From Candidatus Curtissbacteria bacterium RIFCSPLOWO2_12_FULL_41_16 (GTDB taxonomy: Bacteria; Patescibacteriota; Microgenomatia; Curtissbacterales; GWA2-41-24), in the NCBI GenBank assembly GCA_001776545.1, contig MFBZ01000022.1, forward strand, positions 14,065-78,064: 64,000 nt of DNA, read 5' to 3'. The notes beneath the pieces are model-generated. The model did not search any database. It saw nothing but the letters and a program-made list of their open reading frames with translations, and was not told the DNA's origin. The position numbers were made by a program, and so were the translations under genes. Positions 7,553 to 34,312 of this stretch are shown here, in pieces; the first letter of the stretch is position 1, and each line of letters opens with the position of its first letter.

Positions 7553-7831
7553 GACTACAGAGTACTAGAAATAACCTGGGATATCAAGACCCGTAAGGGG
7601 TTCTTTTTTGGGGGGGGGAGTAAGGCTTTTGAAGAGCGATGATCGACAGCGATCCTTTGTGTTGTTCAAAGCTACTTATTAACATACTTTTTGGCGGGTT
7701 GACAATTGTGGAAAAGTTTTGCGATTATAGAGTTTAGCTCTAAAATTTCAAAGATCTTCTTGGAGTTGATCTTCTTAAACACTTAGCCTGCTTAGAGCAA
7801 ATATTCAATTACTTAAAACTATTTTTAGGGG
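7553..7831. promoter_or_regulatory. rpmH-dnaA intergenic region: candidate oriC half / dnaA promoter
   Basis: It lies between divergently oriented rpmH and dnaA. It contains a DnaA-box-like TTGTGGAAA (~7703), several GATC sites and a G9 homopolymer (~7607-7616). Confidence 0.4.
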
Positions 7832-9190
7832 TTGTTTCATATGGAAGGCCAAAAAATTTGGGCCAGCATTCTAGCAGGCATCAAATCGCAGATTTCATCT
7901 TCAACGTTTAAAACCTGGTTTGCCGGTTCTTTTGTTTTGGACTACAAAAAAAATGATGGCGAGAATCTTTTGATTGTCGGCGTCAAGAATAATTTTCTCA
8001 AAGAACAAGTTGAGACTAGATATCAGCCAATAATTGATAAAACTGTTAAGAAAAATGGGTTTTTGCAAACAAGGGTAATTTTTGTAGTTTCCAAAAATGA
8101 TAGGCAGGAGGTATTGGGTAAAAACGAGCCACTATTTTCGGGCGTGGCACCAACTTATATTGGTATTTCTCGTAAAATTGATGGTCTTAATCCGAATCAC
8201 ACTTTTGAAAACTTTGTTGTCGGGTCTTCCAATAACTTAGCTTTTTTGGCTTTTAACCAGGTGGGGGGCAATTTGGGCTCAGTGTACAATCCACTTTTTG
8301 TTTATGGACCAACGGGTGTCGGTAAAACCCATCTCCTGCAGGCTTGCGGCAATGCTGTCCTTTTGGAAATCGTAGACGCTAAGGTTCTTTATGTCTCGGC
8401 AGAAAAATTTACAAATGATTACATAGAATCGCTCCGCGACAGAACCATGGCGGCTTTTCGCCAGAAATACCGAGGCGTCGACCTTCTCCTGGTTGACGAT
8501 GTCCAGTTTTTAGCCGGCAAAGAAAGTACGCAGGATGAATTTTTTTACACTTTTAATGAGCTCTATCTTTCGGGAAGACAGATTGTTCTGGCGGCGGATC
8601 GTCATCCCAGAGAGCTAGGAAGACTCAAGGAAAGATTAGTCAGCCGGTTTTTGGGTGGGATGGCGGTCGATGTCGCCAGACCCGACCTGGAGCTGCGTAC
8701 GGCAATTCTTAAGGCTAAGTGCAGAGAGAGGAAACTAAATTTAAATGATGAAATAATTGATTATATTGCGCGTCAATGCAGCAATGAAGTGCGAGAATTG
8801 GAGGGAGTTTTGGTGCAGGTTCTTTCTTTAATCCGGATTTCGGGTAAAATTTCTCTTTTGCAAATTAAAACGGCCATTGAAAGAGGCCGGAAAAATGTGG
8901 TTATAAAACCTGCGCCTGGTAAAATTATTGAGGCCGTGTCTCGTCATTTTAAAATTGCCAGCGGTGATATTTGTGGTTTGAGGCGAAAAGCAAGGTTGGT
9001 CCGTGCTAGACAAGTTTTAATGTACCTTTTAAGACAAGAGCTGGGCTTACCGCTTGGGGTTATTGGGGATCTTATTGGGGGTAGAGATCATTCGACTGTT
9101 CTTTACGGCATTGAGAGAGTTTCAAAAGAGATGGCAGCTGACCGGAGCAAGAATGATGAGGTTTTGCGAATTCGTTCTCTTTTCCAATAA
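7832..9190 (+). CDS. dnaA: Chromosomal replication initiator DnaA
   Basis: 452 aa with Walker A GPTGVGKTHL, AAA+ box LLLVDDVQFL and a C-terminal DNA-binding domain (RQVLMYLLRQELGLPLGVIGDLIGGRDHSTVLYGIERV). An alternative start is MEGQ at 7841. Confidence 0.9.
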   Translation: MFHMEGQKIWASILAGIKSQISSSTFKTWFAGSFVLDYKKNDGENLLIVGVKNNFLKEQVETRYQPIIDKTVKKNGFLQTRVIFVVSKNDRQEVLGKNEPLFSGVAPTYIGISRKIDGLNPNHTFENFVVGSSNNLAFLAFNQVGGNLGSVYNPLFVYGPTGVGKTHLLQACGNAVLLEIVDAKVLYVSAEKFTNDYIESLRDRTMAAFRQKYRGVDLLLVDDVQFLAGKESTQDEFFYTFNELYLSGRQIVLAADRHPRELGRLKERLVSRFLGGMAVDVARPDLELRTAILKAKCRERKLNLNDEIIDYIARQCSNEVRELEGVLVQVLSLIRISGKISLLQIKTAIERGRKNVVIKPAPGKIIEAVSRHFKIASGDICGLRRKARLVRARQVLMYLLRQELGLPLGVIGDLIGGRDHSTVLYGIERVSKEMAADRSKNDEVLRIRSLFQ

Positions 9191-15176: not shown

Positions 15177-15278
15177 ACTTTAAAGATATCATGAATTGTT
15201 AAATTGTTTTTCATCAATAGAGCAATTTAGCAATATAAGAGAGCTTGGTATCTCGTAAGCTCGATATAGTAATTGAAT

Positions 15279-17099
15279 CTAGAATTGTTTTAAAACGGCG
15301 GCCGATTTTTTCTGCATCTCCAGAAGCTCTTCGGGCTTGGTGGTTACTAAATAGTGTTCGTCTTCCGAGGCGACTATACGAATGGCGACATGGTTTGGTC
15401 CGGCAAAGAAGATGCCTTCACCAACGTCGGCTGCCAGAAGTAAGTGCTTTTCGCCTTCTGATAGATAAAAGACTTCGGCGATCTGATCGATGGCGGCTGG
15501 CGATTGTTTTAGGAGAATCTGGATTGAAGAATTAGTGACGATAGCCTTACCATAATCGGTTCTTAGAAAGTCGGTAACATCCTGAGTGATAGTGGTCAGA
15601 CCCAGATAATACTTTCTGGCCCTTTTGGCGATACTGTACATGAAGGTAGCGCTGTCAGGGTACTGCATCATATACCAGGCCTCATCGACAATGAGAAGGC
15701 GCTTTCTAATATTGTTTTTAATTCTGGTCCAGATAAAGTCTAAAATCAAATACATGGCAATTGGCCGCAGCTCATCCTCCATGTCTTTAATAGAAAAGAC
15801 AGTAAAAGTATTTTTAATGTCGATATTGCTTTGTTGGTTAAAAATGCCAACCAGCGAGCCTTTAACAAATTTCTCAATGCGATCGGCAAGACCGCGGGCG
15901 GCCTGATCTTCCATGCCAAGAAGTATTTTATAGAGATCTTCCATTAGAGGAGGTTCGTTTTTTTGAGTTGCCGGATCAGGGGTAATCCCTTTGGCTTTAT
16001 AGGTGGCAACTAAGGCTCGGTCTAAAAGAGCATCTTCAGTCGGAGTTAAATTGCCCATGATGACTTTGAAAAGTCCATGCAGAGAAAGAATTTTTAGACC
16101 AAGTTCATTTTCGCCTTCTTCATAAACACCGGAGAGGTCAAATGGATTGATTTTAGCGGGTGAGTTGAAATTAAAAGTAATATATTCCCCGCCGATTGCC
16201 TCACAAAGATTTTTATATTCTTCCTCCGGATCGATGACGATAATTTCAGTACCGAACATTAGGGAGCGAAGAGCTTCGAGCTTCACCAGATACGATTTGC
16301 CGGCACCGGATTTGGCAAAAATGACGGAATTGGCGTTTTCTAAAGAAAAGCGGTCAAAAATCACCAGAGAGCCGTTGTGTTCATTGATCCCATACATAAT
16401 GCCGGTATTTGAGGTTAGTGATGAGGAGATGAAAGGGAAAGTGGTCGCAAGGGAGGTGGTATCCATGTTGCGTGTAATATAGATATGGTCAGTGCCCTGC
16501 GGCAGGGTAGTTTTGAAAGCCTCTTCCTGCTGGAGAGTGGCATGTTTGGGGACTAAAAGCAGTGAGCCCAGGGTTGACTCTACTTGTTTGGTGATGGTAT
16601 CCAGTTCTTCACGACTGTCGGCAGGGATAGTGACATAGAGGGCAAACTGAAAGAAGCGTTCGGCTCCTTTGACTAATTCTTCTTGTAGAACCTGTGCATC
16701 TTCCAAAGCAGCTTGGACGGCCGGGTCGAGAACGCGGCCATGTTGGATATCGGTGGCGATGGTAGCTTCCATTTCGGTGATTTTGCGCTTGAGATCATCA
16801 AGAACTCCCTTTGCCTCGACCGGGTAAGAGTACATGGCAATTTCCAGAGTGTGTTCGAAATTAATTAAGGGAGCAAGCCAATTAGCCTGCACAAATCTGG
16901 GGTAGCCTACGACAAAAAGGGTCCTAAAATATGTTGAGCCAACTTTAATGAAGTCGAAATCGACTTCAATTGCCGGAGGCGCAATGATGTCTTTAACTGA
17001 GACGATGCCAGTCGCAAGTGTTTGAACCCACTGCTTCTGCTTATCGGAAAGCTGGGTCTCTCCTGTTTTTTTAGGCGCAAATGGGTTAAATATGCTCAT
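15279..17099 (-). CDS. VirB4/TraC/TrbE-family type IV secretion ATPase
   Basis: 606 aa with Walker A AKSGAGKS and Walker B LLIVDEAW. Size and motif order match VirB4-like conjugation ATPases. Confidence 0.8.
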   Translation of the reverse strand: MSIFNPFAPKKTGETQLSDKQKQWVQTLATGIVSVKDIIAPPAIEVDFDFIKVGSTYFRTLFVVGYPRFVQANWLAPLINFEHTLEIAMYSYPVEAKGVLDDLKRKITEMEATIATDIQHGRVLDPAVQAALEDAQVLQEELVKGAERFFQFALYVTIPADSREELDTITKQVESTLGSLLLVPKHATLQQEEAFKTTLPQGTDHIYITRNMDTTSLATTFPFISSSLTSNTGIMYGINEHNGSLVIFDRFSLENANSVIFAKSGAGKSYLVKLEALRSLMFGTEIIVIDPEEEYKNLCEAIGGEYITFNFNSPAKINPFDLSGVYEEGENELGLKILSLHGLFKVIMGNLTPTEDALLDRALVATYKAKGITPDPATQKNEPPLMEDLYKILLGMEDQAARGLADRIEKFVKGSLVGIFNQQSNIDIKNTFTVFSIKDMEDELRPIAMYLILDFIWTRIKNNIRKRLLIVDEAWYMMQYPDSATFMYSIAKRARKYYLGLTTITQDVTDFLRTDYGKAIVTNSSIQILLKQSPAAIDQIAEVFYLSEGEKHLLLAADVGEGIFFAGPNHVAIRIVASEDEHYLVTTKPEELLEMQKKSAAVLKQF

Positions 17100-18109: not shown

Positions 18110-19666
18110 TCAGTCCTTTGCTTTGACTTCCAGCGGAGCTAAAATTTGGCCTTCTAAGTTGATAGTGAAAGGCTCGAAGTGGGCCTGTTCACTTTCAATT
18201 TCTACTGAATACTTTCCGTTGGCAAGGGAGGTGACTGAAAGAAACTGTCCGAGTTTGTTGGTTTTAAGGGCACGAACGGGAATGCCATTTTCATCTCTGA
18301 CGATAATGATTGCACCAACAATTGGAGTATTATCTTTGCCACTTGTGGCCTGTCCCGAGAGAGTATTTGGATTAGTGGTTAGAGGAATGATTTTGGCCTT
18401 ACCAAGGCCGGCTGCAATTGAGGTTACGTTGGGATTTTGGCCTACAATAGAGATTTTCGAGTCGGCTATTACCTCTTGTTGCTTGAAGGAGGCATTTTGA
18501 GGAGCTGGTCTCTGGTTTGGTTTTGGAACAAAGTAGGCTTGTTTTGCATGAGCTGCGCGTTGGGTGTGTTTTTCAAAAGAGGTTGTGGTGGCCTGATGAG
18601 ATGGACCAGTCCAGACCGGAGGCTGGTTGCCTTTGGCTGGTTTCGGCTGGGGCTCATTAGTTATTGGTTCTGTAGTTTCCGGGAACCGGAAGCGCTTTTT
18701 AAGCTCTTCGGAAATCTCGAATCTGCGCTCGCCCCTGACTGGTAATTTCGACAGGTCAAAATCGACAGGCGGCGCAAAGTGAAGTTTTCTGACCCTGGTT
18801 TTGCCGACTGGCGGCAAAAAGGCTAGACGTTTGTCTGGCGTTTTAATGGGAATGACAAATTCCTGAGAGAAGTTGATATCTGAGGCCAGGTGACGGGGGT
18901 TTTTAGTTTCCTCTTCTTTCGGAGTGGAGTCTGAGAGCATAAGGAGTTCGACGGGGCCAGCATGGCCCGGGCCAAGTTTGGTTTCAAGGCCAGGGAGTAC
19001 GTAAGGCTTGGCATGGGAAGAAATTTTAACTGATGTGCGGGGTGAGAACATAATTGGAGGTTTGGTAGAAGGCAAGGATTCGGGCATGGGGGGAGTTTGG
19101 GCCAGGGTTAACTGGGGCACGGCTTTGATTTGGGGCAGGGCTTCTGAATAAAAGAGAATTGGCGCGGGTAGCTTTCCTTTGGGCACTTGTCCATATTCTT
19201 GGAGTTCAAGTCTTTGGAGCGCGATTTGCTCTTTGACATCAAGTGGCGCTACCTGACCCTTAGGGAGTGAACGTAAATAAGCAAGGAGCCTGGAGCGGCC
19301 TTGGGCGGTGGTTGTTTCTGGAGGATGTTTTTCGGGCAATGGGGCAGAGGTGACAACATTTAAGAACTCTGGTGTTTTTGATTCCTTAATCCAGGTGCGC
19401 AGCGTTGGTGAAAGAACGGAGCGGATAAAGGCGACTAACCATTTATCCAGTGGACGGCCGCCGAATGGCACAAGAGCGGCGATAAAGCCCAGAACGGCGA
19501 AGATGAGACTGGCGGGAATTTTTAAAATTGGGGCGAGAGGAGAGAAAAAAATCAAGGCGGCGACAGAGAGGGGAATTGCCAATGTTATAAACTGGCGAAC
19601 AGTCAGGTTACCAAAAAGTTTAAATTCAAAAGAAGCAATATGTTGCGGGACAGGATGTTGTTCCAT
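18110..19666 (-). CDS. PrgI/VirB3-like membrane protein with a long C-terminal extension
   Basis: The N-terminus (MEQHPVPQHIASFEFKLFGNLTVRQFITLAIPLSVAALIFF) plus a second TM helix resembles the PrgI (VirB3-like) family of Gram-positive T4SS. The remaining ~400 aa are Pro-rich and end in a beta-sandwich-like segment. Confidence 0.5.
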   Translation of the reverse strand: MEQHPVPQHIASFEFKLFGNLTVRQFITLAIPLSVAALIFFSPLAPILKIPASLIFAVLGFIAALVPFGGRPLDKWLVAFIRSVLSPTLRTWIKESKTPEFLNVVTSAPLPEKHPPETTTAQGRSRLLAYLRSLPKGQVAPLDVKEQIALQRLELQEYGQVPKGKLPAPILFYSEALPQIKAVPQLTLAQTPPMPESLPSTKPPIMFSPRTSVKISSHAKPYVLPGLETKLGPGHAGPVELLMLSDSTPKEEETKNPRHLASDINFSQEFVIPIKTPDKRLAFLPPVGKTRVRKLHFAPPVDFDLSKLPVRGERRFEISEELKKRFRFPETTEPITNEPQPKPAKGNQPPVWTGPSHQATTTSFEKHTQRAAHAKQAYFVPKPNQRPAPQNASFKQQEVIADSKISIVGQNPNVTSIAAGLGKAKIIPLTTNPNTLSGQATSGKDNTPIVGAIIIVRDENGIPVRALKTNKLGQFLSVTSLANGKYSVEIESEQAHFEPFTINLEGQILAPLEVKAKD

Positions 19667-19866
19667 GATTGCAATTGCTAGATTGTTACATTGCTAAATT
19701 GTTGAATTGTTTAAAAATAAGCAGAGCTTTTCTTCGAATAACAATCTAACAATGAAACAATATAACAATATCACCCTACCATATGAAACAAGGTGCGGAA
19801 AGTAGATCAAACAGCCTCAAAATAGGCAGATTTTCACAGATGGAGAGTTAGTGTGATTTGCTGGAA

Positions 19867-24888: not shown

Positions 24889-26409
24889 TTAACCGCCTCC
24901 TTGTTCCAATGGTGGAGGTCTTGTTCCGACACCGCTTTTGAGAGATCTATTTAAGAATGGGACACGCTCTCCATATTTCGCAACCACTCCTTGAGCCATG
25001 CCCCAACTGGCGGCTTGACCGACTGCTCTGATGGGTGCGCCCAGAGGTCTACCAATGACGGCTGCCCCCGCACCGAGGGCGGCAGCTCCGGCACCACCGA
25101 ATTGTGGGCCTTTGGCGCCGATGGCGTTTTTGACAAGATTGGCCGCTTCGGGTGTCATGAAGAGAAATCCGAGAGCTATTATTTTACCAATTGCGCCAGG
25201 ATTAAGTCCACCGACAAGCAATGGGAACTTGAGAGCTTCGGAGGCGACTCCTTGAAGCTCGCCTGCTCCGGTTCCTCCAAATGCCGAAATTCCACCGATT
25301 GCCCCGGCAAATATAATCATTAAGGAAACCGTGGGGAAAACGGCGATATTGGCGGCCATTTGTTTAAACCATTCTTTGGCGCCGGTGTTGCCAGGAAGTG
25401 CCTGGATTAAAAAGAAAAAAGGTGCGACCATTGTCAAAATAATAATCATGACATAGGCCATCAGCAGCATTAAGAAAACCCTAAACATAATAAAAAGAGC
25501 GGCGATGCCGACGATTAAACCGGCTATTCCCCCTACGCCCCATTTAATTAAACCAAGTACAGCGCCGCCAGAGATGACGCTGTCCAATAGGCCCTTGATT
25601 GCTTCAGCTGTTGTAGTGAAAACATCTTTCCAGCCACCGACGATTACACCGAAGATACTTTTGTCAAAAATTACAGATGAAGCTTTAGGGGCAGCAATAA
25701 CACCTGCTTCTGCTAATAATTGAATTATGATGTTTATTACAAGGAACATGAGATCGATCATGAGACCGGCGATGGCATAACTGAAAGTAACTAAGATTAG
25801 AGCCACGACAATTCTGGGAATTGAGTCCTGAACGGTGGCTACGGCTTGCGGTGAAATATGGGCGCGGAACATGATCATGAAGCCGATGATCACAAAGACA
25901 ATAACAAAACCTACGTAGGAGGCATTTCTGAAGACTCTCCAGAGGTTAATTACTGGACTTAAAGCTTTGTATCCTTCTCCTTGGGCATAAACAGGTTGTA
26001 CTGGATTAAACTTTTGGAATTCTTGGGCGAAATATTGGACTCCTGAAGCGGGCGGGTTTCCATATAAACTTGCTACTAAGTTCGATGTTGCAGCTAAGGC
26101 TCCTCTACCTGCGGTGAGTTCATTTGTTTCTGGATGAAGGAGCGAGAATCCTAGGATTTGAGTATTTAAACTGTCAACCGTTCCGGCAATTTGGTTAAAG
26201 TTAAAAATTTTATCATCGAAGATATTTTTATCAATCGCACAGCGGTTAAATTGGTTAATAAGTTCTTGATCTGTTGCGTTTGGGTTGTAAGTGCATTGGG
26301 CGTGGACGGGAGAGATGGTAGCGAGTAGCATGTAGCTGGTAACTAGTAGAAAGGTAACTAGTAACTTGCAACTAGTAACTAGTGACCAGATTTTGGCAGC
26401 TAATTTCAT
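24889..26409 (-). CDS. VirB6/TrbL-like polytopic membrane protein
   Basis: 506 aa with a signal/TM N-terminus, a periplasmic segment, 6 or more TM helices and a Gly-rich C-terminal tail, the organisation typical of VirB6/TrbL. It lies in the same locus as virB4-like. Confidence 0.55.
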   Translation of the reverse strand: MKLAAKIWSLVTSCKLLVTFLLVTSYMLLATISPVHAQCTYNPNATDQELINQFNRCAIDKNIFDDKIFNFNQIAGTVDSLNTQILGFSLLHPETNELTAGRGALAATSNLVASLYGNPPASGVQYFAQEFQKFNPVQPVYAQGEGYKALSPVINLWRVFRNASYVGFVIVFVIIGFMIMFRAHISPQAVATVQDSIPRIVVALILVTFSYAIAGLMIDLMFLVINIIIQLLAEAGVIAAPKASSVIFDKSIFGVIVGGWKDVFTTTAEAIKGLLDSVISGGAVLGLIKWGVGGIAGLIVGIAALFIMFRVFLMLLMAYVMIIILTMVAPFFFLIQALPGNTGAKEWFKQMAANIAVFPTVSLMIIFAGAIGGISAFGGTGAGELQGVASEALKFPLLVGGLNPGAIGKIIALGFLFMTPEAANLVKNAIGAKGPQFGGAGAAALGAGAAVIGRPLGAPIRAVGQAASWGMAQGVVAKYGERVPFLNRSLKSGVGTRPPPLEQGGG

Positions 26410-26510
26410 GCAGACTGAAAGGACTCCTTTTTGGGAAGGCTTAATTTAATAGTAGCACGTGGGGAAATACGCAACAAGTAACACGTAACAGGTGACAGGT
26501 GGCAGGGTGA

Positions 26511-27893
26511 TTAGCCACAGGTTGCTTCCATACCGCATTCGGGGCATTTTCTGACTCCGCTGCCGTAGCGGATAATATAGGTGCATTTTTCTTTCTTGTC
26601 TGTTTCGGGATCTACTTTCCAGCCTGGGCACTGAAAATCGCTTGTATCTTCATCTTCGTCATCGGTAAATGGAGCAAAATCCAAGACTGACTTAGCACCT
26701 ATGGCTCTTGCAAGTTGTTTGAGGAGTGGTGGTTGACTGACATTGAATCCTTTCTGACCGCCCGGACAACCCCGAGCGACGGGGCGAACAGGCTGTCTAC
26801 CGAAATGATTGATAAGATTATTAGTATTTTGAGGTCCGACCTCTGAGAATTCAAACTCTCTTTTGGAGGTCGGACCTCTTAAAAAACAAGTGGCATACGT
26901 GGTCTTTTTTTCTTCTCGGAGCTGTTTTTCAGTTAAGTCCGCCACATTATAGATGGCATTTAAGGTCAGTTTTATTTTTTCGATATCAAGAGGGTTTTCG
27001 ATTAAAGTTCGGATATAGGCAAGGATAAAGGGCGTACAGGCTTCAATGATCTGCTGGTTCACCTGATATTTTTGGGCCGATTTGTCAAAGCCAAAAACAG
27101 CCAAAATTTCCTCAAGAGATTTTTGGGATCTAATGGGAGTTTTTAAGAAGAAGGCCGCATTTAATCCTTCGGATGGGTCTCTAAATTGGGGACTAACAGC
27201 CTGGGCGGCTTTCAGAAAACTTTCAAGTGAATGTGTTGAGTGATATCTCGTCATATTTATTTTGCCCGACTTTTTTTGATAAACATCAAAAAGGTTTTCC
27301 GTGTAGAGGCTACCTTCGGGACTTTGTGGTGAGATGACAATGATTTTGGCTTCTTCCACCTCCGAGGAGCCAGGGCTCACCTCGGAGGTGTTGGTAAAGA
27401 GTTCTTGAATCTTGGCAATGCCTTCGACTTCTGCGGTTTCTCTTTCAGTTTCTGTACTGCCATTTGTGGTCAAGAACCTTCTGCCTTTTTCATATTCTTC
27501 AACGATTGGCCCCGGGTAATCTGGACTATAGAGCCTGCCATCCGTAACAATGAAGTATTCGATGGTACTTTTTTCGACGCCGAATCTTTCTCCTAATGCT
27601 TTTTCTATTTGACGTTTGGTGCGGTTATTGGTTTGGATTAATAATTGGGCGTATTCTTCGGGTGGAATTTTGCCGTTTAGACTCTTAAGATCCAGATAAT
27701 CTTGAATATCGTGGCGGGGATTGTAGCCCATGATGCCCTTGAATTCTTTGGGTATTTCCCAGAAAACGGGTTCTGCTTTTATTAAGACACCCCTGGGGTG
27801 TAAGGCTACTCCCACCCCAGGAGTGGACGTGAAAGGCGAGTCCACCTTGGAGGTGTCATGAGTGTGAGGGATAATGATTGTTCTTTCGGGCAC
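26511..27893 (-). CDS. Hypothetical protein with a C-terminal Cys cluster
   Basis: 460 aa. The C-terminus contains CPGG...CPGW...CPECGMEATCG (putative zinc ribbon). No other assignable domain. Confidence 0.4.
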   Translation of the reverse strand: MPERTIIIPHTHDTSKVDSPFTSTPGVGVALHPRGVLIKAEPVFWEIPKEFKGIMGYNPRHDIQDYLDLKSLNGKIPPEEYAQLLIQTNNRTKRQIEKALGERFGVEKSTIEYFIVTDGRLYSPDYPGPIVEEYEKGRRFLTTNGSTETERETAEVEGIAKIQELFTNTSEVSPGSSEVEEAKIIVISPQSPEGSLYTENLFDVYQKKSGKINMTRYHSTHSLESFLKAAQAVSPQFRDPSEGLNAAFFLKTPIRSQKSLEEILAVFGFDKSAQKYQVNQQIIEACTPFILAYIRTLIENPLDIEKIKLTLNAIYNVADLTEKQLREEKKTTYATCFLRGPTSKREFEFSEVGPQNTNNLINHFGRQPVRPVARGCPGGQKGFNVSQPPLLKQLARAIGAKSVLDFAPFTDDEDEDTSDFQCPGWKVDPETDKKEKCTYIIRYGSGVRKCPECGMEATCG

Positions 27894-28208: not shown

Positions 28209-29981
28209 TTAAGGCTGTTGACCACAGTCAATTTTAACACCGAGAGAATCCTGTAAGGCTTTGGGTTTGAGGGCCAAATCACGGACGATTTCTTTACCGC
28301 AATCGGTAGCGCCAATAAATCTTTTCTTGAGATCCTCATCTCCACTTTCAATTTGTTTGCCAGGTAAGCTTTTGGAAAGAAGATCGGGTAGGCAGTACTT
28401 GACTAAGCGCTCGGCATCACCTTGGGCGCATTCACTAGCAATCTTGCTAGTTTGATTGCAGGCTGCTTGGTTACCATCTTTACATCTTTGCACAAGACTG
28501 GCAAAGGTCGGCGGTAAGAAATAATCGCCGACCGCTTGAGGTGTAAAGAAACTATAAACCCCCGGCCTGCCGGTTTCTTGTAAAGACTGAGTTCCTGTTT
28601 CTGCCTGATCCGAGTAAAGGGTACTATTCCAAATTTCTGCAAGCCAGGGGACGCGAAAGACCGGCCAGATTTTTAGAGGTAAAAAGCAAGTGTACGTACC
28701 GTCGCCGTTATCGTCACAGTGATCAAATATCTTAGCTTTATTTTCTGGATCGATAGTAACTTCGCCTATCCAGGTAATATTAAAGGTACAAACTACGTTG
28801 GGATTATCCTGATCGAGTTTATTCTCGTCAGTTTTATTTTGACAAGTTTCACCAGGTAAAAGTTGATCAGCTGGTAAGGCACAATACTTCTCATTGCCTT
28901 CTTTGGCGGGCTTGGAGATTTTAAAACAGCCTGTCGGAGTAGTATCTGTTTGGGCAAAAGCGGTTTTGATAGGATTGGCCGAATCAAGAGAGATTTTAAT
29001 CACCCGCCGTAAGCTTTTGAGGAGAGCTTCTGGTGTTTGGTCAAGTAGCTTCTTACAGAGCGAGAGAGCTTTGGAAAGAATATTACCCGCATCAGCTTGT
29101 TGAGTGATAGTCCCGTGGTCTCGAAATGATTGGGCGGCATAAGGAACAATCATTTGATTAAGCTGATCAGAGGTGGCAGTGGTTCGCCAAAATTGGGGGA
29201 GGATAAATTCGATTACTCGAGGGAGCGATAAAAGACAAAGTTTGCCTGCCTCGAATTGTCTGATGGTTTCCTTGCCCACAGCTTGTTTAAATTCTAATTT
29301 ACCGACATAGAATTCGCTATAAGCTGTGGGGATTTTTTCCCAGTAGCGGCCCCAAGTGGCCAGCCATTGAGTTCTATCCTCATTGGCCTCGGGTGGGTCA
29401 GGGAGCCCAAATTCGCCAACCAGATCATAAATAGTTTTGGGATCACCCTTACCTTCAATATCTGTGTATTTATTGGTAGATTCGAGAAGTGTGGGTTTAT
29501 TGTAGACATACTCCACATATTTTTTTCTCAAGTCATCAATAAGGATTTTGGCAGAAGTCTTTTGGCCAGGCCCATGGAAAAGATTAAAATTTTGGCTGGA
29601 AAGATTGACAATGTTGGCTAGACGGTGGGCATCATCTTGGAATTTGCCCTCAAGGTAATTGGAATTGGTTGTGGAGAAAAGAGCTTGGAGATTGGAAAAA
29701 TCGACTGTAAAACTAAAAGATTGGGAAACGATGACATCCTCATCGCGTTTACCCTTAACTTGAATTGCTTGATCATCAGTGAATTTGATAGGCGCATCTC
29801 TATTTTCGTCGGTGATGTAATTGTCGGTTAATTTATCGGTTTCAACGGCATTTTCGCATGGTTGAGGATTAGGGGGGCCAGCGGCGCTTGCGCCGCTAGT
29901 GATAAGTGATAAGTGATAAGTGATAAGTAAAAAAAATACTATAAGAGAAATGCGAAAAGTGCTTATGATCATACTTTGCAC
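28209..29981 (-). CDS. Secreted cysteine-rich hypothetical protein
   Basis: 590 aa with an N-terminal signal peptide and about 20 Cys residues. The signal-peptide region is encoded by a (GTGATAA)4 repeat plus a T8 tract. Confidence 0.5.
   Translation of the reverse strand: MQSMIISTFRISLIVFFLLITYHLSLITSGASAAGPPNPQPCENAVETDKLTDNYITDENRDAPIKFTDDQAIQVKGKRDEDVIVSQSFSFTVDFSNLQALFSTTNSNYLEGKFQDDAHRLANIVNLSSQNFNLFHGPGQKTSAKILIDDLRKKYVEYVYNKPTLLESTNKYTDIEGKGDPKTIYDLVGEFGLPDPPEANEDRTQWLATWGRYWEKIPTAYSEFYVGKLEFKQAVGKETIRQFEAGKLCLLSLPRVIEFILPQFWRTTATSDQLNQMIVPYAAQSFRDHGTITQQADAGNILSKALSLCKKLLDQTPEALLKSLRRVIKISLDSANPIKTAFAQTDTTPTGCFKISKPAKEGNEKYCALPADQLLPGETCQNKTDENKLDQDNPNVVCTFNITWIGEVTIDPENKAKIFDHCDDNGDGTYTCFLPLKIWPVFRVPWLAEIWNSTLYSDQAETGTQSLQETGRPGVYSFFTPQAVGDYFLPPTFASLVQRCKDGNQAACNQTSKIASECAQGDAERLVKYCLPDLLSKSLPGKQIESGDEDLKKRFIGATDCGKEIVRDLALKPKALQDSLGVKIDCGQQP
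29882..29925. repeat. (GTGATAA)x4 heptanucleotide tandem repeat followed by an A8/T8 homopolymer, inside the signal-peptide coding region
   Basis: The plus strand reads agtgataagtgataagtgataagtgataagtaaaaaaaa. The minus-strand translation is FFLLITYHLSLITSG. Confidence 0.8.
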
Positions 29982-30029
29982 TTTGCACTTAGTACTTCTT
30001 TGAATCCGGGCAGCAGACTCATTCCTTAA

Positions 30030-30140
30030 GTATAATTGCTACATTGCTACATTGCTACATTGTTTGGTTAAGTTTCTAAATTAAATAATGATGATGTTTT
30101 TCTAAAACAATTTAACAATGGAACAATTTAACAATTTCTA
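30030..30140. repeat. Intergenic 8-bp-period tandem repeat (ATTGCTAC)x3 plus a CAATTTAACAAT cluster
   Basis: attgctacattgctacattgctacattg, then acaatttaacaatggaacaatttaacaattt. It belongs to the (ATTGYTAN)n family seen at nine or more intergenic sites. Confidence 0.7.
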
Positions 30141-30142
30141 TC

Positions 30143-30487
30143 TTACTTTGGTATTTCGACTGTGGTGACATCGACGCCGGTGAGGCCAGCGATTAACTTA
30201 AGGATAAGCCAAGAGGCCACAACTAAAATGATGCCAATGACAGCCATGGTGAGGGTACTACGGGCCTGGCCGGCGGCTTTAGGATCGCCGCCTGAGGTGA
30301 CAAACTGGAAGCCGCCAACCAAAAGCATTACAAAAAAAGCAATACCGGCCGCCGGGGCCAGAAGCTTAATGATTCTTTGAAGAATATCCACGACATCCAA
30401 AAGCTTGGCTGGTGGTGGATCAGTTTGGGCATAGACAGGCGAAACAAAAGCTGTCAAAAGCCCAACCAAAGTTAAGAAAATCCGCAT
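30143..30487 (-). CDS. T4SS pilin-like small membrane protein (paralog 1)
   Basis: Start trimmed to MRIFLT (ATG at 30485-30487). Signal peptide, a hydrophobic helix, a TSGGDPKAAGQAR motif and a second hydrophobic helix, resembling TrbC/VirB2-like and CPR T4SS pilins. Confidence 0.55.
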   Translation of the reverse strand: MRIFLTLVGLLTAFVSPVYAQTDPPPAKLLDVVDILQRIIKLLAPAAGIAFFVMLLVGGFQFVTSGGDPKAAGQARSTLTMAVIGIILVVASWLILKLIAGLTGVDVTTVEIPK

Positions 30488-30497
30488 GAGTTTCTGG

Positions 30498-30887
30498 TTA
30501 TGGTTCGACAGTAGGAATCGTAAACGTACCGCTGATAATGGTGACTCCGAAGAAAGTTTCCACCAATTTAATAATGGCAAAAGCAACCAAGACAATCACC
30601 AGACCAATTAACGCAGCAGTAATCGTATTTCTGGCACCCGCAACCGCTTTTTCGTCTCCACCCGCCAGAATCCAGCGGATGCCTCCCACCAGAAGCATAA
30701 TGAAAGCGATAATGAAGGCGACTACAAGGATAAACTGGATAATTGCCCGGATGATCTTAATAATATCCGCGTTTTTGCTAAGTTGTTCCGGTACAAGATT
30801 ATTCTGGGCAGCGGCTATGGTTGGGAATACAAGAGAACCGGTAAGAATCGCAAGCGGCCCCAGCAATCTTTTGGCATATTTAAACAT
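30498..30887 (-). CDS. T4SS pilin-like small membrane protein (paralog 2)
   Basis: 129 aa with the AGGDEKAVAGAR motif between two hydrophobic helices. Confidence 0.55.
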   Translation of the reverse strand: MFKYAKRLLGPLAILTGSLVFPTIAAAQNNLVPEQLSKNADIIKIIRAIIQFILVVAFIIAFIMLLVGGIRWILAGGDEKAVAGARNTITAALIGLVIVLVAFAIIKLVETFFGVTIISGTFTIPTVEP

Positions 30888-30914
30888 CAGATTCTTTTCA
30901 CCTCCCTTTTAGAT

Positions 30915-31319
30915 TTATCTTTGTGGCAGATTGAATTGGCCAGAGATGATTTGAACATTGAAAAAGGTTTCTACTAATTTGATTATAGCAAAAGCGCCGA
31001 CAACCACAACCAGTCCGATTAAGCCCCAGTAGATTTGGCCCCAGGCGGAAGCGATGGCTTTTTCGTCGCCGCCGGCGAAGATGAATCGGAGACCGGCAAA
31101 AATCATCCAGATGACACCGATGATGAAGGCTGCAATTACTAACAGGAAAATACCGTTCCTGATGAGGCTGGCAACAAAGCCTGAGGGGTTGGTTCCGGCA
31201 GAGGGAATTGAGGACGGGGCCGAGATTTTGCCGAGATCTTGGGCGAGGGCGAGTGAGGGAAGAATAAATAAACTGAAAAAAATTGCGAGGATGGTGATTA
31301 ATTGCTTCATTTTATTCAA
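30915..31319 (-). CDS. T4SS pilin-like small membrane protein (paralog 3)
   Basis: 134 aa with an AGGDEKAIASAW motif and the same architecture. Confidence 0.55.
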   Translation of the reverse strand: MNKMKQLITILAIFFSLFILPSLALAQDLGKISAPSSIPSAGTNPSGFVASLIRNGIFLLVIAAFIIGVIWMIFAGLRFIFAGGDEKAIASAWGQIYWGLIGLVVVVGAFAIIKLVETFFNVQIISGQFNLPQR

Positions 31320-31356
31320 ATAACAATTTAGCCATTTAGCAATTTAACAATTTGTA

Positions 31357-31656
31357 CTATGTTATCGGTACACTTGACCTTAAGAAATATTGGACTACTT
31401 GCAAAATGACAAAAGCCAAAATGGTAACCGTCAAACCAATAATAGCATAGGTTAAGGTTGCTTGGGCCGCAGCCAGTTTTTTTTGGTCTCCTGAGGCAGT
31501 GACGATTTTAATGCCGGAAATAATAATAAAAATAATGGCGATGGCGCCGGCGATGCTGGTTAGGATGAGAATGATGTCGCTGGCGAGAGCGCCGAAAGTT
31601 TCAAAGCGGGCTGGAGGGAAGATAGTTTTGTCAATTGTAAAAGCTAATTGGTTCAT
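31357..31656 (-). CDS. T4SS pilin-like small membrane protein (paralog 4)
   Basis: 99 aa with an ASGDQKKLAAAQ motif and the same architecture. Confidence 0.5.
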   Translation of the reverse strand: MNQLAFTIDKTIFPPARFETFGALASDIILILTSIAGAIAIIFIIISGIKIVTASGDQKKLAAAQATLTYAIIGLTVTILAFVILQVVQYFLRSSVPIT

Positions 31657-31829
31657 GGTTTCTTCCTTCGACCGACTAACGACTAAAGCCGTTCAATAAT
31701 TTTTAATTTTCAATTCACATTCAATTCTTAATGACTTAATTTTGAAATTTAGAAAATGAAAATTCATTGAAAATTGCAAATTGAAAATTACTAAAAGCGC
31801 TAGTCTTTAGTTGGTAGTCGTTAAGCATT

Positions 31830-32204
31830 TTAAACTACCCCACTGTTTCCTAAAAATATCTTGTCAACAATCTGCAAAATGGCAAAGGCCAGGATAATGA
31901 TCACGAAGCCGATGACGGCAAAGGTCAGCCGGCCGCGGGCGGCTGCTGCGGCTTCGGGATTGCCGCCGGAAGTAATAAATTGAATGCCGGAGATGATAAT
32001 GACAATGACGGTGATAAAGCCGGCAATACCCAGAACTACAGGCAAGAATTCGCTAATAATTTTGCCTATCAGTCCTTGTGCAGAAAACTTTTTTTCAACA
32101 TCTGACTTGGGTAAAGTGATTTGGGCAATTATCGCCGTCAGGCCCGTCGGCGCAAGAAGTTTTCTTAATTGATTTTGCATAGTTTTATCCAAAGGTAATT
32201 CCAA
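31830..32204 (-). CDS. T4SS pilin-like small membrane protein (paralog 5)
   Basis: 124 aa with a TSGGNPEAAAAARGR motif and the same architecture. Confidence 0.5.
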   Translation of the reverse strand: MELPLDKTMQNQLRKLLAPTGLTAIIAQITLPKSDVEKKFSAQGLIGKIISEFLPVVLGIAGFITVIVIIISGIQFITSGGNPEAAAAARGRLTFAVIGFVIIILAFAILQIVDKIFLGNSGVV

Positions 32205-33219
32205 GTATATTAAGACCGATAAATTTGAGTATCAAAACCGAGAATATCAAAAACAGCAGTCCGGCGACTGCTCCCACAATTATGTCGCGGCCGCCTGCCA
32301 GTTTTTGCTGGTCGCCGGAAGAAGTCAAGACACGGACTGAGCCGATAACCATTAGAATTAAGGCAATACCGCCGGCAAGGCCAATGGCAATGCCCAAGAT
32401 TTTGCCGGCAAAGGCTGTGGGGTTGGTGGGGATGTCTCCAAGGGCAGTTTCACAGACTCCTCCCGGACAGGGATTTTGGCCGGAAGTTCCGGTACTGGTG
32501 CCCCCACCAGGAGTTTTCCCTTCTTTGACAGTGATGGCTGGTAATTGATAACAAAATTCTGTTGTTGGAGGTATGGTATTAGGAGCAAAATAAAGTTTTA
32601 GGATATGATTGCCCTTTTTTAGTTTTCCGATATTTGCTTGCCACCCTCCTGGGCCAACTGGAGCACCTGCTGTTAAACTTTTAAAATCTTTATCATCAAT
32701 TTTGACACCAAATGATGCAGGATTTGTTCTCAAGGGATCAGAACCTGTAACAGGTTCAAAATATGCCGTAATATCGGTATCTTCATAAAATTCAGCTGGG
32801 CTATAGGCGTCAAACTGAGGACAAGCCCCAGCTCCGGTAGTTGCCTGGACAGTAAAGGTTGAGGAACATTCAATACTGCCATCTGGGCGCTGGAAATCGA
32901 AGGTATAGACGGCATTCACATCGAATGGTCCAACTGACCTTGAGAAATTGCCGTTCGCGTCTGTGGTAATCGGATCACTTATAACGACAAAACCAGGTCT
33001 TCTGACCACAAGCGTGTAAGATTTGTTGGCGAGTGCTGGGTTATTCGAAGTAAACGAAACAGTTGTCTGCTGAGTTGTAGAAATAAAATTGGGAGAAGCA
33101 CCACAACTCCCTACCGCCCTCGCGGTATTATTTAAACCTATAATGCTCCAAAGAAAAATGAGTATTACGAATGAAATAATGAAAGAAATCTTCTTGAAAT
33201 TAAAAATGTTCATCGTCAA
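32185..33219 (-). CDS. Pilin-like protein with an N-terminal beta-sandwich (Ig/adhesin-like) domain
   Basis: 344 aa with a signal peptide and a ~250-aa beta-rich domain. The C-terminus carries the pilin module (TSSGDQQKLAGGRD) flanked by hydrophobic helices. Confidence 0.5.
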   Translation of the reverse strand: MTMNIFNFKKISFIISFVILIFLWSIIGLNNTARAVGSCGASPNFISTTQQTTVSFTSNNPALANKSYTLVVRRPGFVVISDPITTDANGNFSRSVGPFDVNAVYTFDFQRPDGSIECSSTFTVQATTGAGACPQFDAYSPAEFYEDTDITAYFEPVTGSDPLRTNPASFGVKIDDKDFKSLTAGAPVGPGGWQANIGKLKKGNHILKLYFAPNTIPPTTEFCYQLPAITVKEGKTPGGGTSTGTSGQNPCPGGVCETALGDIPTNPTAFAGKILGIAIGLAGGIALILMVIGSVRVLTSSGDQQKLAGGRDIIVGAVAGLLFLIFSVLILKFIGLNILGITFG

Positions 33220-33451
33220 TTTCAGTGTAGCATTAGATAGATAAATTGTTAAATTGTTACATTGCTAAATTGCCGAGTTGGCTATTTGAAGATTTCGGTT
33301 TCGAGAGATTTGGCAAAGGCTTACTTTTTCTCTTGGATATTGTTTTTTCAATTTTTCGTAGTTATTGCTCCCATATATGAATGTGTATGAATGTGTGAAT
33401 CATATCAAGAATCTAGTTTAACACAAAATTAGGCCATGGTATTAAATTGTG

Positions 33452-34027
33452 TTAGATTCCGAAGTAATCACGGTATGGTTTTTCGTTTTCGATGCTGGCT
33501 ACTTTTAGAATTTTGACATCGTCACCTATGTTCAAAAGCTGTCTTAGAAATTCGATTTCATTTTCACAAGGATGGGGTGTTAGGTAGACGCTTTTTTGTA
33601 ATTGAAAGCACTCAAGGCGCTTGAGGATTTCTCTAAGGTAGTTTCTTTCTTTTTTCTTATGTTTGGGAACATCGTAGATAATAAGTCTCCATTTACCGTC
33701 CCACTTTTTGTTCAGTTGCATGTCTTCAAGATTAAACTTCAGTACTTTTATTTTGCCTTTTTCGGTGATTTTAATCGTTTCGTCACCTACAACCTCAACA
33801 ATTTTCCGTTCTTTTAATCTCCTTAAGACTTGCTTGAGCCTTGATTGATTAAACTGGCGCCATTTTTGATAGTCCTTCTCGCGCTTGTAATCCAAGAATG
33901 GCTTTAGAGCAAGGGGAAGGCCTGGTGCAATAATTGTGGCAGCCAAGAACGTGCCGGCTGCCAAAAGAGTAAGTACATTCTTGACCGTTGGACTGATTAA
34001 TTCCTTTTTCGACTTTGTTTTAGCCAT
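33452..34027 (-). CDS. Membrane-anchored protein with a Cas2/PaaX-C-terminal-like domain (hypothetical)
   Basis: Start trimmed to MAKTKSK (ATG at 34025-34027). One TM helix. WRLIIYDVPKHKKKERNYLREILKRLECFQLQKSVYLT resembles the Cas2/VapD-like fold found in PaaX C-terminal domains. Palindromic elements flank the gene. Confidence 0.4.
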   Translation of the reverse strand: MAKTKSKKELISPTVKNVLTLLAAGTFLAATIIAPGLPLALKPFLDYKREKDYQKWRQFNQSRLKQVLRRLKERKIVEVVGDETIKITEKGKIKVLKFNLEDMQLNKKWDGKWRLIIYDVPKHKKKERNYLREILKRLECFQLQKSVYLTPHPCENEIEFLRQLLNIGDDVKILKVASIENEKPYRDYFGI

Positions 34028-34312
34028 AGAGCAATAGTAACACAAATTTAGGCCATGGCATATTTTTGTGTTATTCTTTGATTCATTATTTAATGGGTTT
34101 ATGAGATAATAGAGTCTAATAAACTTCCGAGGGCACTAAAGCCCTCGGTATTGTTCTTTAAGTTTACATGAGCGCAGAAAACCACCAACGTTTGAGATTT
34201 TTATCCCTCGGAAGTATGTATTCGCTTTTTTGCATTCATCCCCGCCTAAATATTCAATTTTTGGCGGGGATATCTAGCAAGCGAATATAAAATTGAGTCT
34301 TTAGCCAACTTT

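What the first reader, a model, noticed from the sequence alone, without database searches (positions are those of the whole stretch)
29880..29930. Heptanucleotide repeat (GTGATAA)4 plus T8 tract in the signal-peptide codons of a secreted Cys-rich protein: potential phase-variation switch
Four perfect 7-nt repeats immediately followed by an 8-nt homopolymer lie within codons 18-30 of gene 28209..29981. A 7-nt unit is not a multiple of 3, so gain or loss of one unit shifts the frame. Homopolymer slippage does the same. This is the classic slipped-strand-mispairing architecture of contingency loci. It is unexpected in a small-genome organism and suggests on/off switching of a surface protein.
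Basis: seen in the sequence. Interest (0 to 1): 0.6.

Follow-up and report, generated by a model that had tools for sequence, protein, structure and literature searches.

The report
Heptamer repeats in a signal peptide
A perfect 7-base repeat really does sit inside the export signal of a secreted protein in a tiny groundwater bacterium (Curtissbacteria). It belongs to a widespread class of 7-base repeats that shift reading frames over evolutionary time, and I found no sign that it flips the gene on and off today.

Summary
(AGTGATA)x4.4 is perfect at 29898-29928, and A8 follows at 29929-36 (T8 on the gene strand). Both lie in the signal-peptide codons of a 587-aa secreted protein of unknown fold, in a CPR type IV secretion/pilin cluster.

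The "phase switch" reading is only partly supported.

**For:**
- The unit is not a multiple of 3.
- A change of one unit abolishes the start codon and signal peptide in silico.
- Heptamer arrays occupy the same two positions in most homologs, with different units. That implies ongoing slippage.
- In this genome the ancestral start (ATG 30022, MSLLPGF) is already out of frame with the body.

**Against:**
- Nine loci from at least 8 assemblies, and 23 contigs at protein level, show no repeat-number change.
- About 2 of 19 DNA-checked orthologs are frame-broken.
- Arrays never exceed about 5 units.
- The replacement start, ATG 29972, is lineage-specific (TTA in orthologs). That points to a fixed rearrangement.
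- T8 is ordinary: about 15 such tracts occur in the window.

(CTTATCA)n occurs in at least 120 unrelated metagenome contigs, where period 7 dominates all other periods. Best reading: a member of the known heptamer-SSR class that was co-opted as the signal-peptide core. It is evolutionarily unstable, and it is not shown to be a contingency locus.

The parts
29898..29928 (-). Zone-2 heptamer array, (ACTTATC)x4.4 perfect on the gene strand. It encodes LITYHLSLIT, part of the h-region of the signal peptide. This is the array in the finding.
   Evidence: The same array at the same place is in L006, and a broken version is in L007. Orthologs carry other units at the same position.
29929..29936 (-). 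T8 tract (A8 on the + strand), encoding FF(L) of the h-region.
   Evidence: about 15 A/T>=8 tracts in the window. It is T7 in L007, T6 in L011 and absent in L006.
29973..29990 (-). Zone-1 heptamer array, (AAGTGCA)x2.6 perfect. It lies between the ancestral start and the hydrophobic core, and the reading frame is broken here.
   Evidence: The same unit (GTGCAAA) occurs in L011 and L012 in frame. Adding 1 unit fuses ATG 30022 to the body as a 606-aa product.
29969..30022 (-). Ancestral initiation codon ATG 30022 plus 17 codons (MSLLPGFKEVLSAKCKV) ending in TGA 29971..29969. The stop overlaps ATG 29972 as ATGA. In this allele it is a separate short ORF.
   Evidence: ATGAGTCTGCTGCCCGGATTC is identical in L006 and L157, and the first 18 bases are identical in L009. 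It is in frame with the body in all three.
30002..30020 (-). Small hairpin GAGUCUG-CUGCC-CGGAUUC directly after the AUG.
   Evidence: It is present in about 8 of 17 orthologs. The stem is AAAAUCG/CGAUUUU with the same CUGCC loop in L015 and L022.
30029..30034 (-). -10-like hexamer TATACT, 6 nt upstream of ATG 30022. This implies a leaderless or near-leaderless mRNA.
   Evidence: TATACT/TATAAT lies 6-19 nt before the first ATG in most orthologs. SD-like motifs at only about 10 of 48 ORF starts.
30035..30062 (-). Octamer array (CAATGTAG)x3.5 abutting the -10 hexamer.
   Evidence: L157 has (CAATGTAR)x4 and L006 has CAATTNNN x4 at the same place.
30106..30137 (.). Distal octamer array (AATTGTTA-type, x4) about 85-115 nt upstream of ATG 30022.
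28209..29972 (-). Body ORF, 587 aa from ATG 29972. Predicted signal peptide (residues 1-30; ASA|AG), then a Cys-rich secreted protein of a Curtissbacteria-specific family. No Pfam domain and no PDB fold match.
30143..33219 (-). Context: six consecutive T4SS_pilin (PF18895) paralogs upstream on the same strand.
   Evidence: The arrangement is conserved in orthologous loci.

Best explanation
The (TTATCAC)4 tract is a genuine heptanucleotide simple-sequence repeat that has been co-opted as part of the hydrophobic core of a signal peptide.

It is one of two heptamer arrays that lie between a 5'-terminal (leaderless-type) start codon and the signal-peptidase site of a T4SS-cluster secreted protein. 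The two arrays are zone 1 at 29973-29990 and zone 2 at 29898-29928. Octamer arrays in the promoter complete the 5' module.

Such arrays belong to the heptamer-specific SSR class already known to be over-represented in many bacteria. That class is attributed in the literature to polymerase slippage.

This unit is tolerated in coding sequence for two reasons. It is stop-free in all three sense frames, and it encodes L/I/T/Y/H/L/S.

Slippage keeps the arrays homogeneous within a lineage while the unit drifts between lineages (concerted evolution). Selection for signal-peptide length and reading frame holds them at about 3-5 units. Occasionally a slip breaks the frame.

In this genome that has happened at zone 1. 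The ancestral AUG now yields a 17-residue peptide. The body is most likely translated by re-initiation at a newly evolved AUG (29972, TTA in orthologs) that overlaps the stop as AUGA.

The tract is therefore a latent, low-frequency frameshift site, not a demonstrated rapid on/off switch.

Shown: the anatomy, the family-wide and metagenome-wide distribution, the frame states, and the invariance among assemblies.
Inferred: slippage as the cause, leaderless initiation, re-initiation at AUG 29972, and a low switching rate.
For: Anatomy and excess over chance:
- The array is perfect.
- In the window, perfect tandem arrays occur only with period 7 (4 arrays) or period 8 (3 arrays), against 0.14 and 0.02 expected.

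Family-wide trait:
- Very many of the 89 homolog N-termini show 7-aa-periodic h-regions, such as LITYHLSLIT, LFTIHYSLFT, LFTFHFSLF and LVTSYLLLVTS.
- At DNA level, zone-2 arrays sit at -60..-30 nt before the PxPxxC motif in most orthologs. They have 2.4-4.9 copies and different units: TTATCAC, TTCACTA perfect x4.9 in L012, and TTTTCAA perfect x4.0 in L025.
- Zone-1 arrays likewise differ in unit: GTGCAAA, GAAAGTG, GTCAATT and AATCGTA.

General class:
GC ranges from 26 to 71%.
- Those 743 kb hold 286 perfect period-7 arrays, against 2-19 for most other periods from 4 to 12 (one of period 11, none of period 10). 66 loci carry heptamer arrays of other units.
- Several arrays form signal-peptide cores of unrelated proteins (L062, L076, L113, L119).
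- Heptamer over-representation and the slippage idea are in PMC4692102. TAACTGA arrays of 2-6 copies lie next to start codons, and in the reverse orientation they encode LSVISYQ at protein termini (PMC4679880).

Frame states:
- The first ATG is in frame in about 17 of 19 DNA-checked loci, even through inserted hairpin elements.
- It is out of frame in the window allele and in L156.
- ATG 29972 aligns with TTA in L006 and L011.

Stability:
- There is no indel in 9 same-species loci that carry SNPs.
- 23 contigs encode the identical product.
- All 5 cluster members are 587 aa.
Against: - Assemblies give only the majority allele, so a minority of switched cells cannot be excluded.
- The same-species samples are nearly clonal (<=0.2% divergence), which makes the stability test weak.
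- Perfect arrays with lineage-specific units require repeated unit gains and losses. Each single step is a frameshift, which is what a contingency locus does.
- The gene is in a surface-structure (T4SS/pilin) cluster, the typical place for phase variation.
- Re-initiation at AUG 29972 and leaderless initiation have no transcript or protein data behind them.
Confidence: 0.55

Rival explanations
1. True contingency locus. Slipped-strand mispairing in one or both heptamer arrays switches the T4SS-associated surface protein ON and OFF at high frequency within the population. The window allele is caught in an OFF (or low) phase at zone 1.
For: - The unit is not divisible by 3, and it lies in the 5' coding region of a secreted protein in a pilin/T4SS cluster.
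- The in-silico toggle works for both arrays.
- The tract passes the >=3-copy cut-off for 6-9-mers (PMC5953494).
- Two frame-broken alleles with intact bodies exist.
- Lineage-specific perfect units imply frequent slippage.
- N-terminal SSR bias is a signature of phase variation (PMC3315296).
Against: - No repeat-number variant appears in 9 DNA loci from at least 8 assemblies or in 23 contigs, and no length variant appears in the protein cluster.
- Only about 2 of 19 loci are out of frame, whereas neutral switching would give about 2 of 3.
- Arrays never exceed about 5 units, compared with 13-24 for hmw heptamers (PMC8262952) and 3-26 for Neisseria CATTTCT (PMC5953494).
- The neighbouring intergenic 7/8-mer arrays, which have no frame constraint, are equally invariant.
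- The lineage-specific new start codon suggests the broken state is old and compensated.
Confidence: 0.2
2. The arrays are cis-acting nucleic-acid elements, and their coding content is incidental. They could be binding sites for an RNA- or DNA-binding regulator, or an unstructured or structured 5' mRNA segment that tunes initiation on a leaderless transcript.
For: - A translational-regulator role was proposed for TAACTGA heptamer arrays next to start codons (PMC4679880).
- Other heptamer arrays in the window lie just upstream of start codons: (AAATTTC)x3.9 sits 6 nt before ATG 59410, and (AAGGATT)-type repeats lie before an ATG near 63990.
- The 31-nt array is nucleotide-identical in a 48%-identical ortholog.
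- Zone 1 (AAGUG) is partly complementary to zone 2 (CACUU).
- A conserved hairpin follows the AUG.
Against: - Units differ from array to array within this genome (AGTGATA, ACTTTGC, AAATTTC, AAGGATT, AATTGGA, GTAACTA) and between orthologs. No single binding motif emerges.
- Folds of the 5' 138 nt are not more stable than shuffles (z = -1.3 and -1.2), and the MFE does not pair zone 1 with zone 2.
- The frame is maintained through the arrays in nearly all orthologs, so they are translated.
Confidence: 0.12
3. Chance repeat or assembly artefact.
For: Short-read assemblers can mis-size tandem repeats.
Against: - The sequence is identical in at least 8 independent assemblies made with different assemblers.
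- 0.14 perfect period-7 arrays are expected per window, against 4 seen.
- The array is 31 nt, shorter than a read.
Confidence: 0.02
4. Programmed ribosomal frameshifting joins the MSLLPGF ORF to the body.
For: The two ORFs overlap, and the body lies in the -1 frame.
Against: - There is no X XXY YYZ slippery heptamer and no prfB-like +1 site at AAA GUA UGA (read directly).
- Orthologs are simply in frame.
Confidence: 0.02

Closest known systems
Over-represented heptameric SSRs / STRR-type heptanucleotide arrays: cyanobacterial STRR, Xanthomonas/Nostoc GGGAATC, Beggiatoaceae-Cyanobacteria-Bacteroidetes TAACTGA (PMC2670836, PMC4692102, PMC4679880)
   Same: - Tandem 7-nt units, typically in 2-6 copies.
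- A genome-wide excess of period 7 over other periods.
- Location at or near gene 5' ends.
- When inside ORFs they sit at protein termini, in the stop-free orientation.
- Our unit CACTTAT differs by one base from the reverse TAACTGA unit CAGTTAT (LSLITYH versus LSVISYQ).
   Different: - Here the arrays are inside a functional signal peptide, at a position conserved across a whole protein family.
- Units are diverse rather than one dominant heptamer per genome.
- The host is a CPR bacterium, and I found no report of such arrays in CPR.
- Two arrays in one 5' coding module set the frame jointly.
Neisseria opa-type coding repeats (CTCTT/CTTCT pentamers in the signal-peptide codons; 5-24 copies listed in PMC5953494; mechanism from own knowledge)
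   Same: The repeat unit is not divisible by 3. It lies in the signal-peptide-coding region of a surface protein and encodes hydrophobic residues in every frame. Copy number decides the frame.
   Different: - opa tracts are long and demonstrably polymorphic within and between strains, and most copies are OFF.
- Here there are 4.4 copies, invariant in all assemblies, and nearly all orthologs are ON.
Haemophilus influenzae hmw1A/hmw2A heptanucleotide (ATCTTTC)n phase variation (PMC8262952)
   Same: A heptanucleotide unit controls an adhesin/surface protein.
   Different: The hmw repeats are in the promoter/5' region. They have 13-24 or more copies and grade transcription. Here the repeats are coding, short and frame-setting.
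Hypervariable in-frame 9-mer repeat gene of a Gracilibacterium (PMC6851277)
   Same: This was the only repeat-driven hypervariation in a CPR genome that my literature search returned.
   Different: That repeat is in frame (a PTD repeat), long, and visibly heterogeneous in reads. It is not a frameshift switch.

Membership tests
SSR contingency (phase-variable) locus | SSR with a unit not divisible by 3 inside the 5' coding region or promoter | tested here: met
SSR contingency (phase-variable) locus | Tract length at or above the empirically mutable threshold | tested here: inconclusive
   The heptamer at x4.4 passes the >=3 cut-off for 6-9-mers, and T8 fails the T>=11 cut-off (PMC5953494). However, proven heptamer switches have 13-24 copies (PMC8262952).
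SSR contingency (phase-variable) locus | Repeat-number polymorphism among strains of the species or within a population | tested here: not met
   There is no indel in 9 loci from at least 8 assemblies that differ by SNPs. 23 contigs encode the identical product. All cluster members are 587 aa. Read-level heterogeneity is not testable here.
SSR contingency (phase-variable) locus | Both ON and OFF alleles with otherwise intact ORFs among relatives | tested here: inconclusive
   Two frame-broken alleles (the window species and L156) occur among about 19 DNA-checked loci. Both have intact bodies. The window allele has a compensating new start codon.
SSR contingency (phase-variable) locus | Reversible phenotypic switching at high frequency | not testable with these tools
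   The organism is uncultured, and no reads or expression data are available.
Heptameric SSR / STRR-like arrays | Tandem direct repeats of a 7-nt unit | tested here: met
Heptameric SSR / STRR-like arrays | Period 7 specifically over-represented relative to other periods in the genome or lineage | tested here: met
   Window: only periods 7 and 8 occur. Curtissbacteria loci: 18 period-7 arrays against 1 each of periods 6, 8 and 12. Metagenome loci: 286 period-7 arrays against 2-19 for most other periods (one of period 11, none of period 10).
Heptameric SSR / STRR-like arrays | Preferential location in intergenic regions, next to start codons or at protein termini | tested here: met
   compare PMC4679880.
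Heptameric SSR / STRR-like arrays | One dominant unit per genome (as for TAACTGA in BOGUAY) | tested here: not met
   At least 7 different units occur in the window.
Sec-type signal peptide | Charged n-region, hydrophobic h-region and an AxA cleavage motif ahead of a conserved mature N-terminus | tested here: met
   MIISTFR / ISLIVFFLLITYHLSLITS / GASA|AGPPNPQPC. The AxA + PxPxxC pattern is conserved in most of the 89 homologs whose N-terminus was recovered. AF2 predicts a helix at residues 2-24. No dedicated predictor was run.
CPR/Gram-positive-type T4SS gene cluster (context) | VirB4-like ATPase, PrgI/VirB3-like protein and pilin genes adjacent | tested here: met
   PF19044/PF12846 at 15279-17099, PF12666 at 18110-19666, and PF18895 six times at 30143-33219.

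The most novel reading that the evidence does not exclude
Curtissbacteria (CPR) may place two heptamer arrays between a leaderless start codon and the signal-peptidase site of T4SS/pilus-associated secreted proteins, forming a two-array frame lock. Slippage in either array would then reversibly switch the protein, so that the broken state seen here and in L156 represents an OFF phase. That would be the first SSR contingency locus in the Candidate Phyla Radiation, and it would control a structure thought to mediate attachment to or DNA uptake from hosts. A second, independent novel reading is that stop-free heptamer arrays are a general evolutionary source of signal-peptide cores across phyla, since LITYHLSLIT also occurs in unrelated signal peptides.
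Probability: 0.2. Interest if true: 0.7.

Novelty: new variant of a known kind. Interest (0 to 1): 0.42.

Why it matters
CPR bacteria are uncultured episymbionts. How they vary the surface structures that contact hosts is unknown, and my literature search returned no SSR-based phase variation in them.

If the arrays do switch, this locus would be a directly testable example, because read pile-ups over a 150-nt region would settle it.

Even without switching, the data show something useful for annotation and evolution. Heptamer arrays can build the hydrophobic core of signal peptides. They persist at a fixed position in a protein family while their unit sequence turns over. They also displace start codons, so gene callers mis-place or truncate N-termini (P0001, P0030, P0046, P0062).

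Tried and rejected
- **Paralogy with the neighbouring 506-aa gene.** This gene shares the 5' build, but BLASTP found no similarity.
- **A shared 'AAATTAAGCC' leader motif in the window.** It is not enriched (12 matches against 11.5 expected).
- **An RNA structure pairing zone 1 with zone 2.** The MFE folds do not use it, and the z-scores are -1.3 and -1.2. I rejected it as a supported feature.
- **Three homologs with apparently truncated N-termini as OFF alleles.** P0030 and P0046 are in frame with the upstream ATG, so these are gene-caller artefacts. Only P0062 is truly out of frame.
- **Programmed frameshifting.** There is no slippery site.
- **DnaA-box resemblance of TTATCAC.** The match is out of register after 5 bases, so I dropped it.
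- **The metagenome scan.** It therefore added nothing on within-species variation.
Full report
**1. What is there**

On the + strand, 29898..29928 is a perfect (AGTGATA)x4.4 array. It is followed by A8 at 29929..29936. On the gene (-) strand this reads T8 followed by (ACTTATC)x4.4. It encodes FFLLITYHLSLIT within MIISTFRISLIVFFLLITYHLSLITSGASA|AGPPNPQPC, the N-terminus of ORF 28209..29972/29981.

The array is far beyond chance. In the 64-kb window the only perfect tandem arrays (>=2.5 copies, >=16 nt) have period 7 (four arrays) or period 8 (three arrays). Third-order Markov simulations give 0.14 and 0.02 expected.

The T8 tract is ordinary, because about 15 A/T tracts of 8 or more occur in the window.

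**2. The gene and its setting**

- The protein has no Pfam domain.
- It has no relative among solved structures.
- Its AF2 model (pLDDT 67) has no PDB fold match.
- It has 89 homologs, and those that are named are almost all from Candidatus Curtissbacteria (CPR/Microgenomates).
- The mature N-terminus (A)PGPPNPQPC and at least nine cysteines are conserved.
- The gene lies directly downstream of six T4SS_pilin paralogs. It is near a PrgI-like gene and a VirB4-like ATPase gene. Orthologous loci conserve this arrangement.

The window also holds rpmH-rnpA-yidD and dnaA, so it is the chromosomal origin region.

**3.

Orthologs start with MSLLPGF/MPALPRF or MKIAARF. In the window that start exists at ATG 30022, six bases after a TATACT hexamer. 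It encodes MSLLPGFKEVLSAKCKV and then stops at a TGA that overlaps ATG 29972 as ATGA.

Between the two starts lies a second perfect heptamer array, (AAGTGCA)x2.6 at 29973..29990. Adding one unit there fuses ATG 30022 to the body as a 606-aa protein with the architecture of the orthologs.

The upstream region carries an octamer array (CAATGTAG)x3.5 that abuts the -10 hexamer, and a second octamer array about 90 nt further up.

SD-like motifs precede only about 10 of 48 ORF starts in the window, and many starts lie 6-15 nt after a -10-like hexamer. Leaderless or near-leaderless initiation is therefore likely in this organism. This is an inference.

**4. Comparative anatomy**

At DNA level, 19 orthologous or related loci were examined.

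- Most have a zone-1 heptamer array after the start. The units are GTGCAAA in L011 and L012 (the same as here), GAAAGTG in L006, GTCAATT/GTCAATG in L015, L017, L019 and L022, and AATCGTA in L027.
- Most have a zone-2 array at -60..-30 nt before the PxPxxC motif. The units are TTATCAC x4.4 in L006 (identical to the window although the proteins are 48% identical), an interrupted version in L007, TTCACTA perfect x4.9 in L012, TTTTCAA perfect x4.0 in L025, and imperfect versions elsewhere.
- The closest species (L157, 77% identity) has the same promoter octamers, -10 hexamer and first 21 nt. It has no zone-1 array and only an imperfect TTTCTAG-type zone 2.
- At protein level, very many of the 89 N-termini show the corresponding 7-residue periodicity.

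Perfect arrays with lineage-specific units, at a fixed position and with a narrow size range (2.4-4.9 units), are best explained by continuing slippage with homogenisation, under selection for signal-peptide length and reading frame. This is an inference.

**5. Frame states**

The first ATG is in frame with the body in about 17 of 19 loci. This holds even where one to three GC-rich hairpin elements are inserted in the n-region (L011, L015, L017, L022, L154). That argues translation really starts at the first ATG.

Two alleles are broken, and both have intact bodies:
- The window species is broken at zone 1.
- L156 (a single contig) is broken between zones 1 and 2.

In the window, the codon used as the replacement start (ATG 29972) aligns with TTA (Leu) in L006 and L011. 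The new start is therefore lineage-specific. That fits a fixed, compensated rearrangement better than a transient OFF phase.

**6.

Nine same-species loci from at least eight assemblies differ from the window by 1-10 SNPs over 2.2-7 kb. They contain no indel, so every 7- and 8-mer array in that span is identical. At protein level, 23 contigs encode the identical 587-aa product, and the 90%-identity cluster holds five sequences, all of 587 aa. No 606-aa (ON) variant or truncated variant exists in the collection.

This is a negative result at consensus level. It cannot exclude minority alleles in reads, and the samples are nearly clonal.

**7. The wider class**

GC ranges from 26 to 71%, and copy number from 3.1 to 18.9.

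In those 743 kb, perfect arrays of period 7 number 286, against 2-19 for most other periods from 4 to 12 (one of period 11, none of period 10). 66 loci carry additional heptamer arrays of other units.

Most arrays are outside long ORFs or lie just upstream of start codons. Several form the h-region of signal peptides of unrelated proteins, for example MKNIITVFLAILITYHLSLITSSAQ and MKKIALVLITYHLSLITSLAC.

This matches published knowledge:
- Heptameric SSRs are over-represented in many bacteria, possibly because of the footprint of the replicative polymerase (PMC4692102, citing Mrazek 2007).
- Cyanobacterial STRRs are 7-bp repeats of unknown function (PMC2670836).
- TAACTGA arrays of 2-6 copies lie next to start codons in Beggiatoaceae, Cyanobacteria and Bacteroidetes. 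In reverse orientation they encode LSVISYQ at protein termini (PMC4679880).

The unit here, CACTTAT (LSLITYH), is one base away from that reverse unit, CAGTTAT.

**8. Mechanism**

In silico, +/-1 unit in zone 2 or T8+/-1 leaves the body without a start codon and hydrophobic core. Adding one unit in zone 1 restores the ancestral fusion. The tract is therefore a possible frameshift switch.

Four points weigh against a rapid switch:
- The tract is short compared with proven heptamer switches: hmw has 13-24 copies (PMC8262952) and Neisseria CATTTCT has 3-26 (PMC5953494).
- It is invariant in all assemblies.
- Nearly all orthologs are in frame.
- The broken state here is compensated by a new start codon.

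I therefore rate 'evolutionarily unstable heptamer SSR co-opted as signal-peptide core; latent, low-frequency frameshift site' at 0.55. I rate a true contingency locus at 0.2.

A cis-regulatory reading gets 0.12. It is weakened by the diversity of units and by unremarkable fold energies. Artefact and programmed frameshifting each get 0.02.

**9. Novelty**

Heptamer arrays and signal-peptide SSR switches (opa) are both known. The new points are the CPR host, the conserved two-array layout inside a leaderless-type signal-peptide module of a T4SS-cluster protein family, and the unit turnover at a fixed position. My literature search found no SSR phase variation reported for CPR.

The verdict is a new variant of a known kind. 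Interest is moderate, and it would be high if read data showed switching.

Noticed in passing
window 4190-4225, 15215-15234, 19673-19711, 19738-19771, 30035-30062, 30106-30137, 31324-31353, 33242-33272, 50462-50493, 61196-61237: Octamer arrays with phased CAAT (consensus about RRCAATNT, 3-5 copies) give 20 matches to CAAT-N4-CAAT-N4-CAAT against 0.02 expected. Several directly abut a -10-like hexamer of T4SS/pilin-cluster genes and occupy the spacer/-35 region. The same layout is seen in orthologous loci (L006, L012, L024, L157). They look like a lineage-specific promoter or activator-site architecture.
   Followed up: partly
window 30002-30020 (- strand); L006, L007, L009, L011, L015, L022: A 7-bp hairpin with a CUGCC loop lies directly after the start AUG. 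The stem is GAGUCUG/CGGAUUC in MSLLPGF-type genes and AAAAUCG/CGAUUUU in MKIAARF-type genes. The nucleotide motif GCTGCCCG is thus kept in two different reading frames, with compensatory stem changes. It is present in about 8 of 17 loci and its energies are weak (-4 to -8 kcal/mol).
   Followed up: partly
window 24889-26560 (- strand): The neighbouring, unrelated 506-aa membrane/secreted protein gene has the same 5' build. It starts with ATGAAATTAGCTGCCAAA. Its signal peptide (SLVTSCKLLVTFLLVTSYMLLAT) carries degenerate (TTACTAG)-type heptamers. CACCTGT/TACGTGT heptamers lie upstream at 26469-26506.
   Followed up: partly
window 59378-59404 and 63952-63983: Two heptamer arrays lie immediately upstream of start codons, where an SD would sit. 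(AAATTTC)x3.9 ends 6 nt before ATG 59410. (AAGGATK)x4.6, which repeats an SD-like AAGGA, lies before an ATG near 63990. This resembles the TAACTGA arrays of Beggiatoaceae (PMC4679880).
   Followed up: no
L011, L015, L016, L017, L022, L154, L156 (n-region of orthologs): GC-rich hairpin elements are inserted one to three times between the start codon and the h-region. Translated, they read PFDKLRMTLS, PERSRRV, LSEVEGL, PSASLRAR and HPSKSGQTRQSKS. They stay in frame in all of these loci except L156, the frame-broken allele. This gives unusually long signal-peptide n-regions.
   Followed up: no
L009 2640-3011 and L156 212-595: In two orthologous loci a 23S_rRNA_IVP/bAvd-like four-helix-bundle gene sits immediately upstream, in divergent orientation. 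bAvd is the accessory protein of diversity-generating retroelements. No such gene was seen next to the window copy.
   Followed up: no
window 7415-9190; G9 at 7610-7618: The window holds rpmH, rnpA, yidD and dnaA, so it is the chromosomal origin region. A G9 homopolymer, the longest G/C tract in the window, lies in the rpmH-dnaA spacer.
   Followed up: no
window, 48 ORF starts: SD-like motifs precede only about 10 of 48 ORF starts, and many start codons lie 6-15 nt after a -10-like hexamer. This suggests widespread leaderless or short-leader mRNAs in this Curtissbacterium.
   Followed up: partly
L097 (metagenome contig Ga0315280_10111746): A (CTTATCA)x4.3 array lies in frame inside what looks like the leader peptide of a type IV prepilin (MTKRQNLSLITYHLSRVSG|FTLIELLVV).
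   Followed up: no
window 33452-34045 (- strand): A 197-aa protein with a PaaX central/Cas2-like domain (PF20803, PF09827) is encoded just upstream of the pilin cluster.
   Followed up: no
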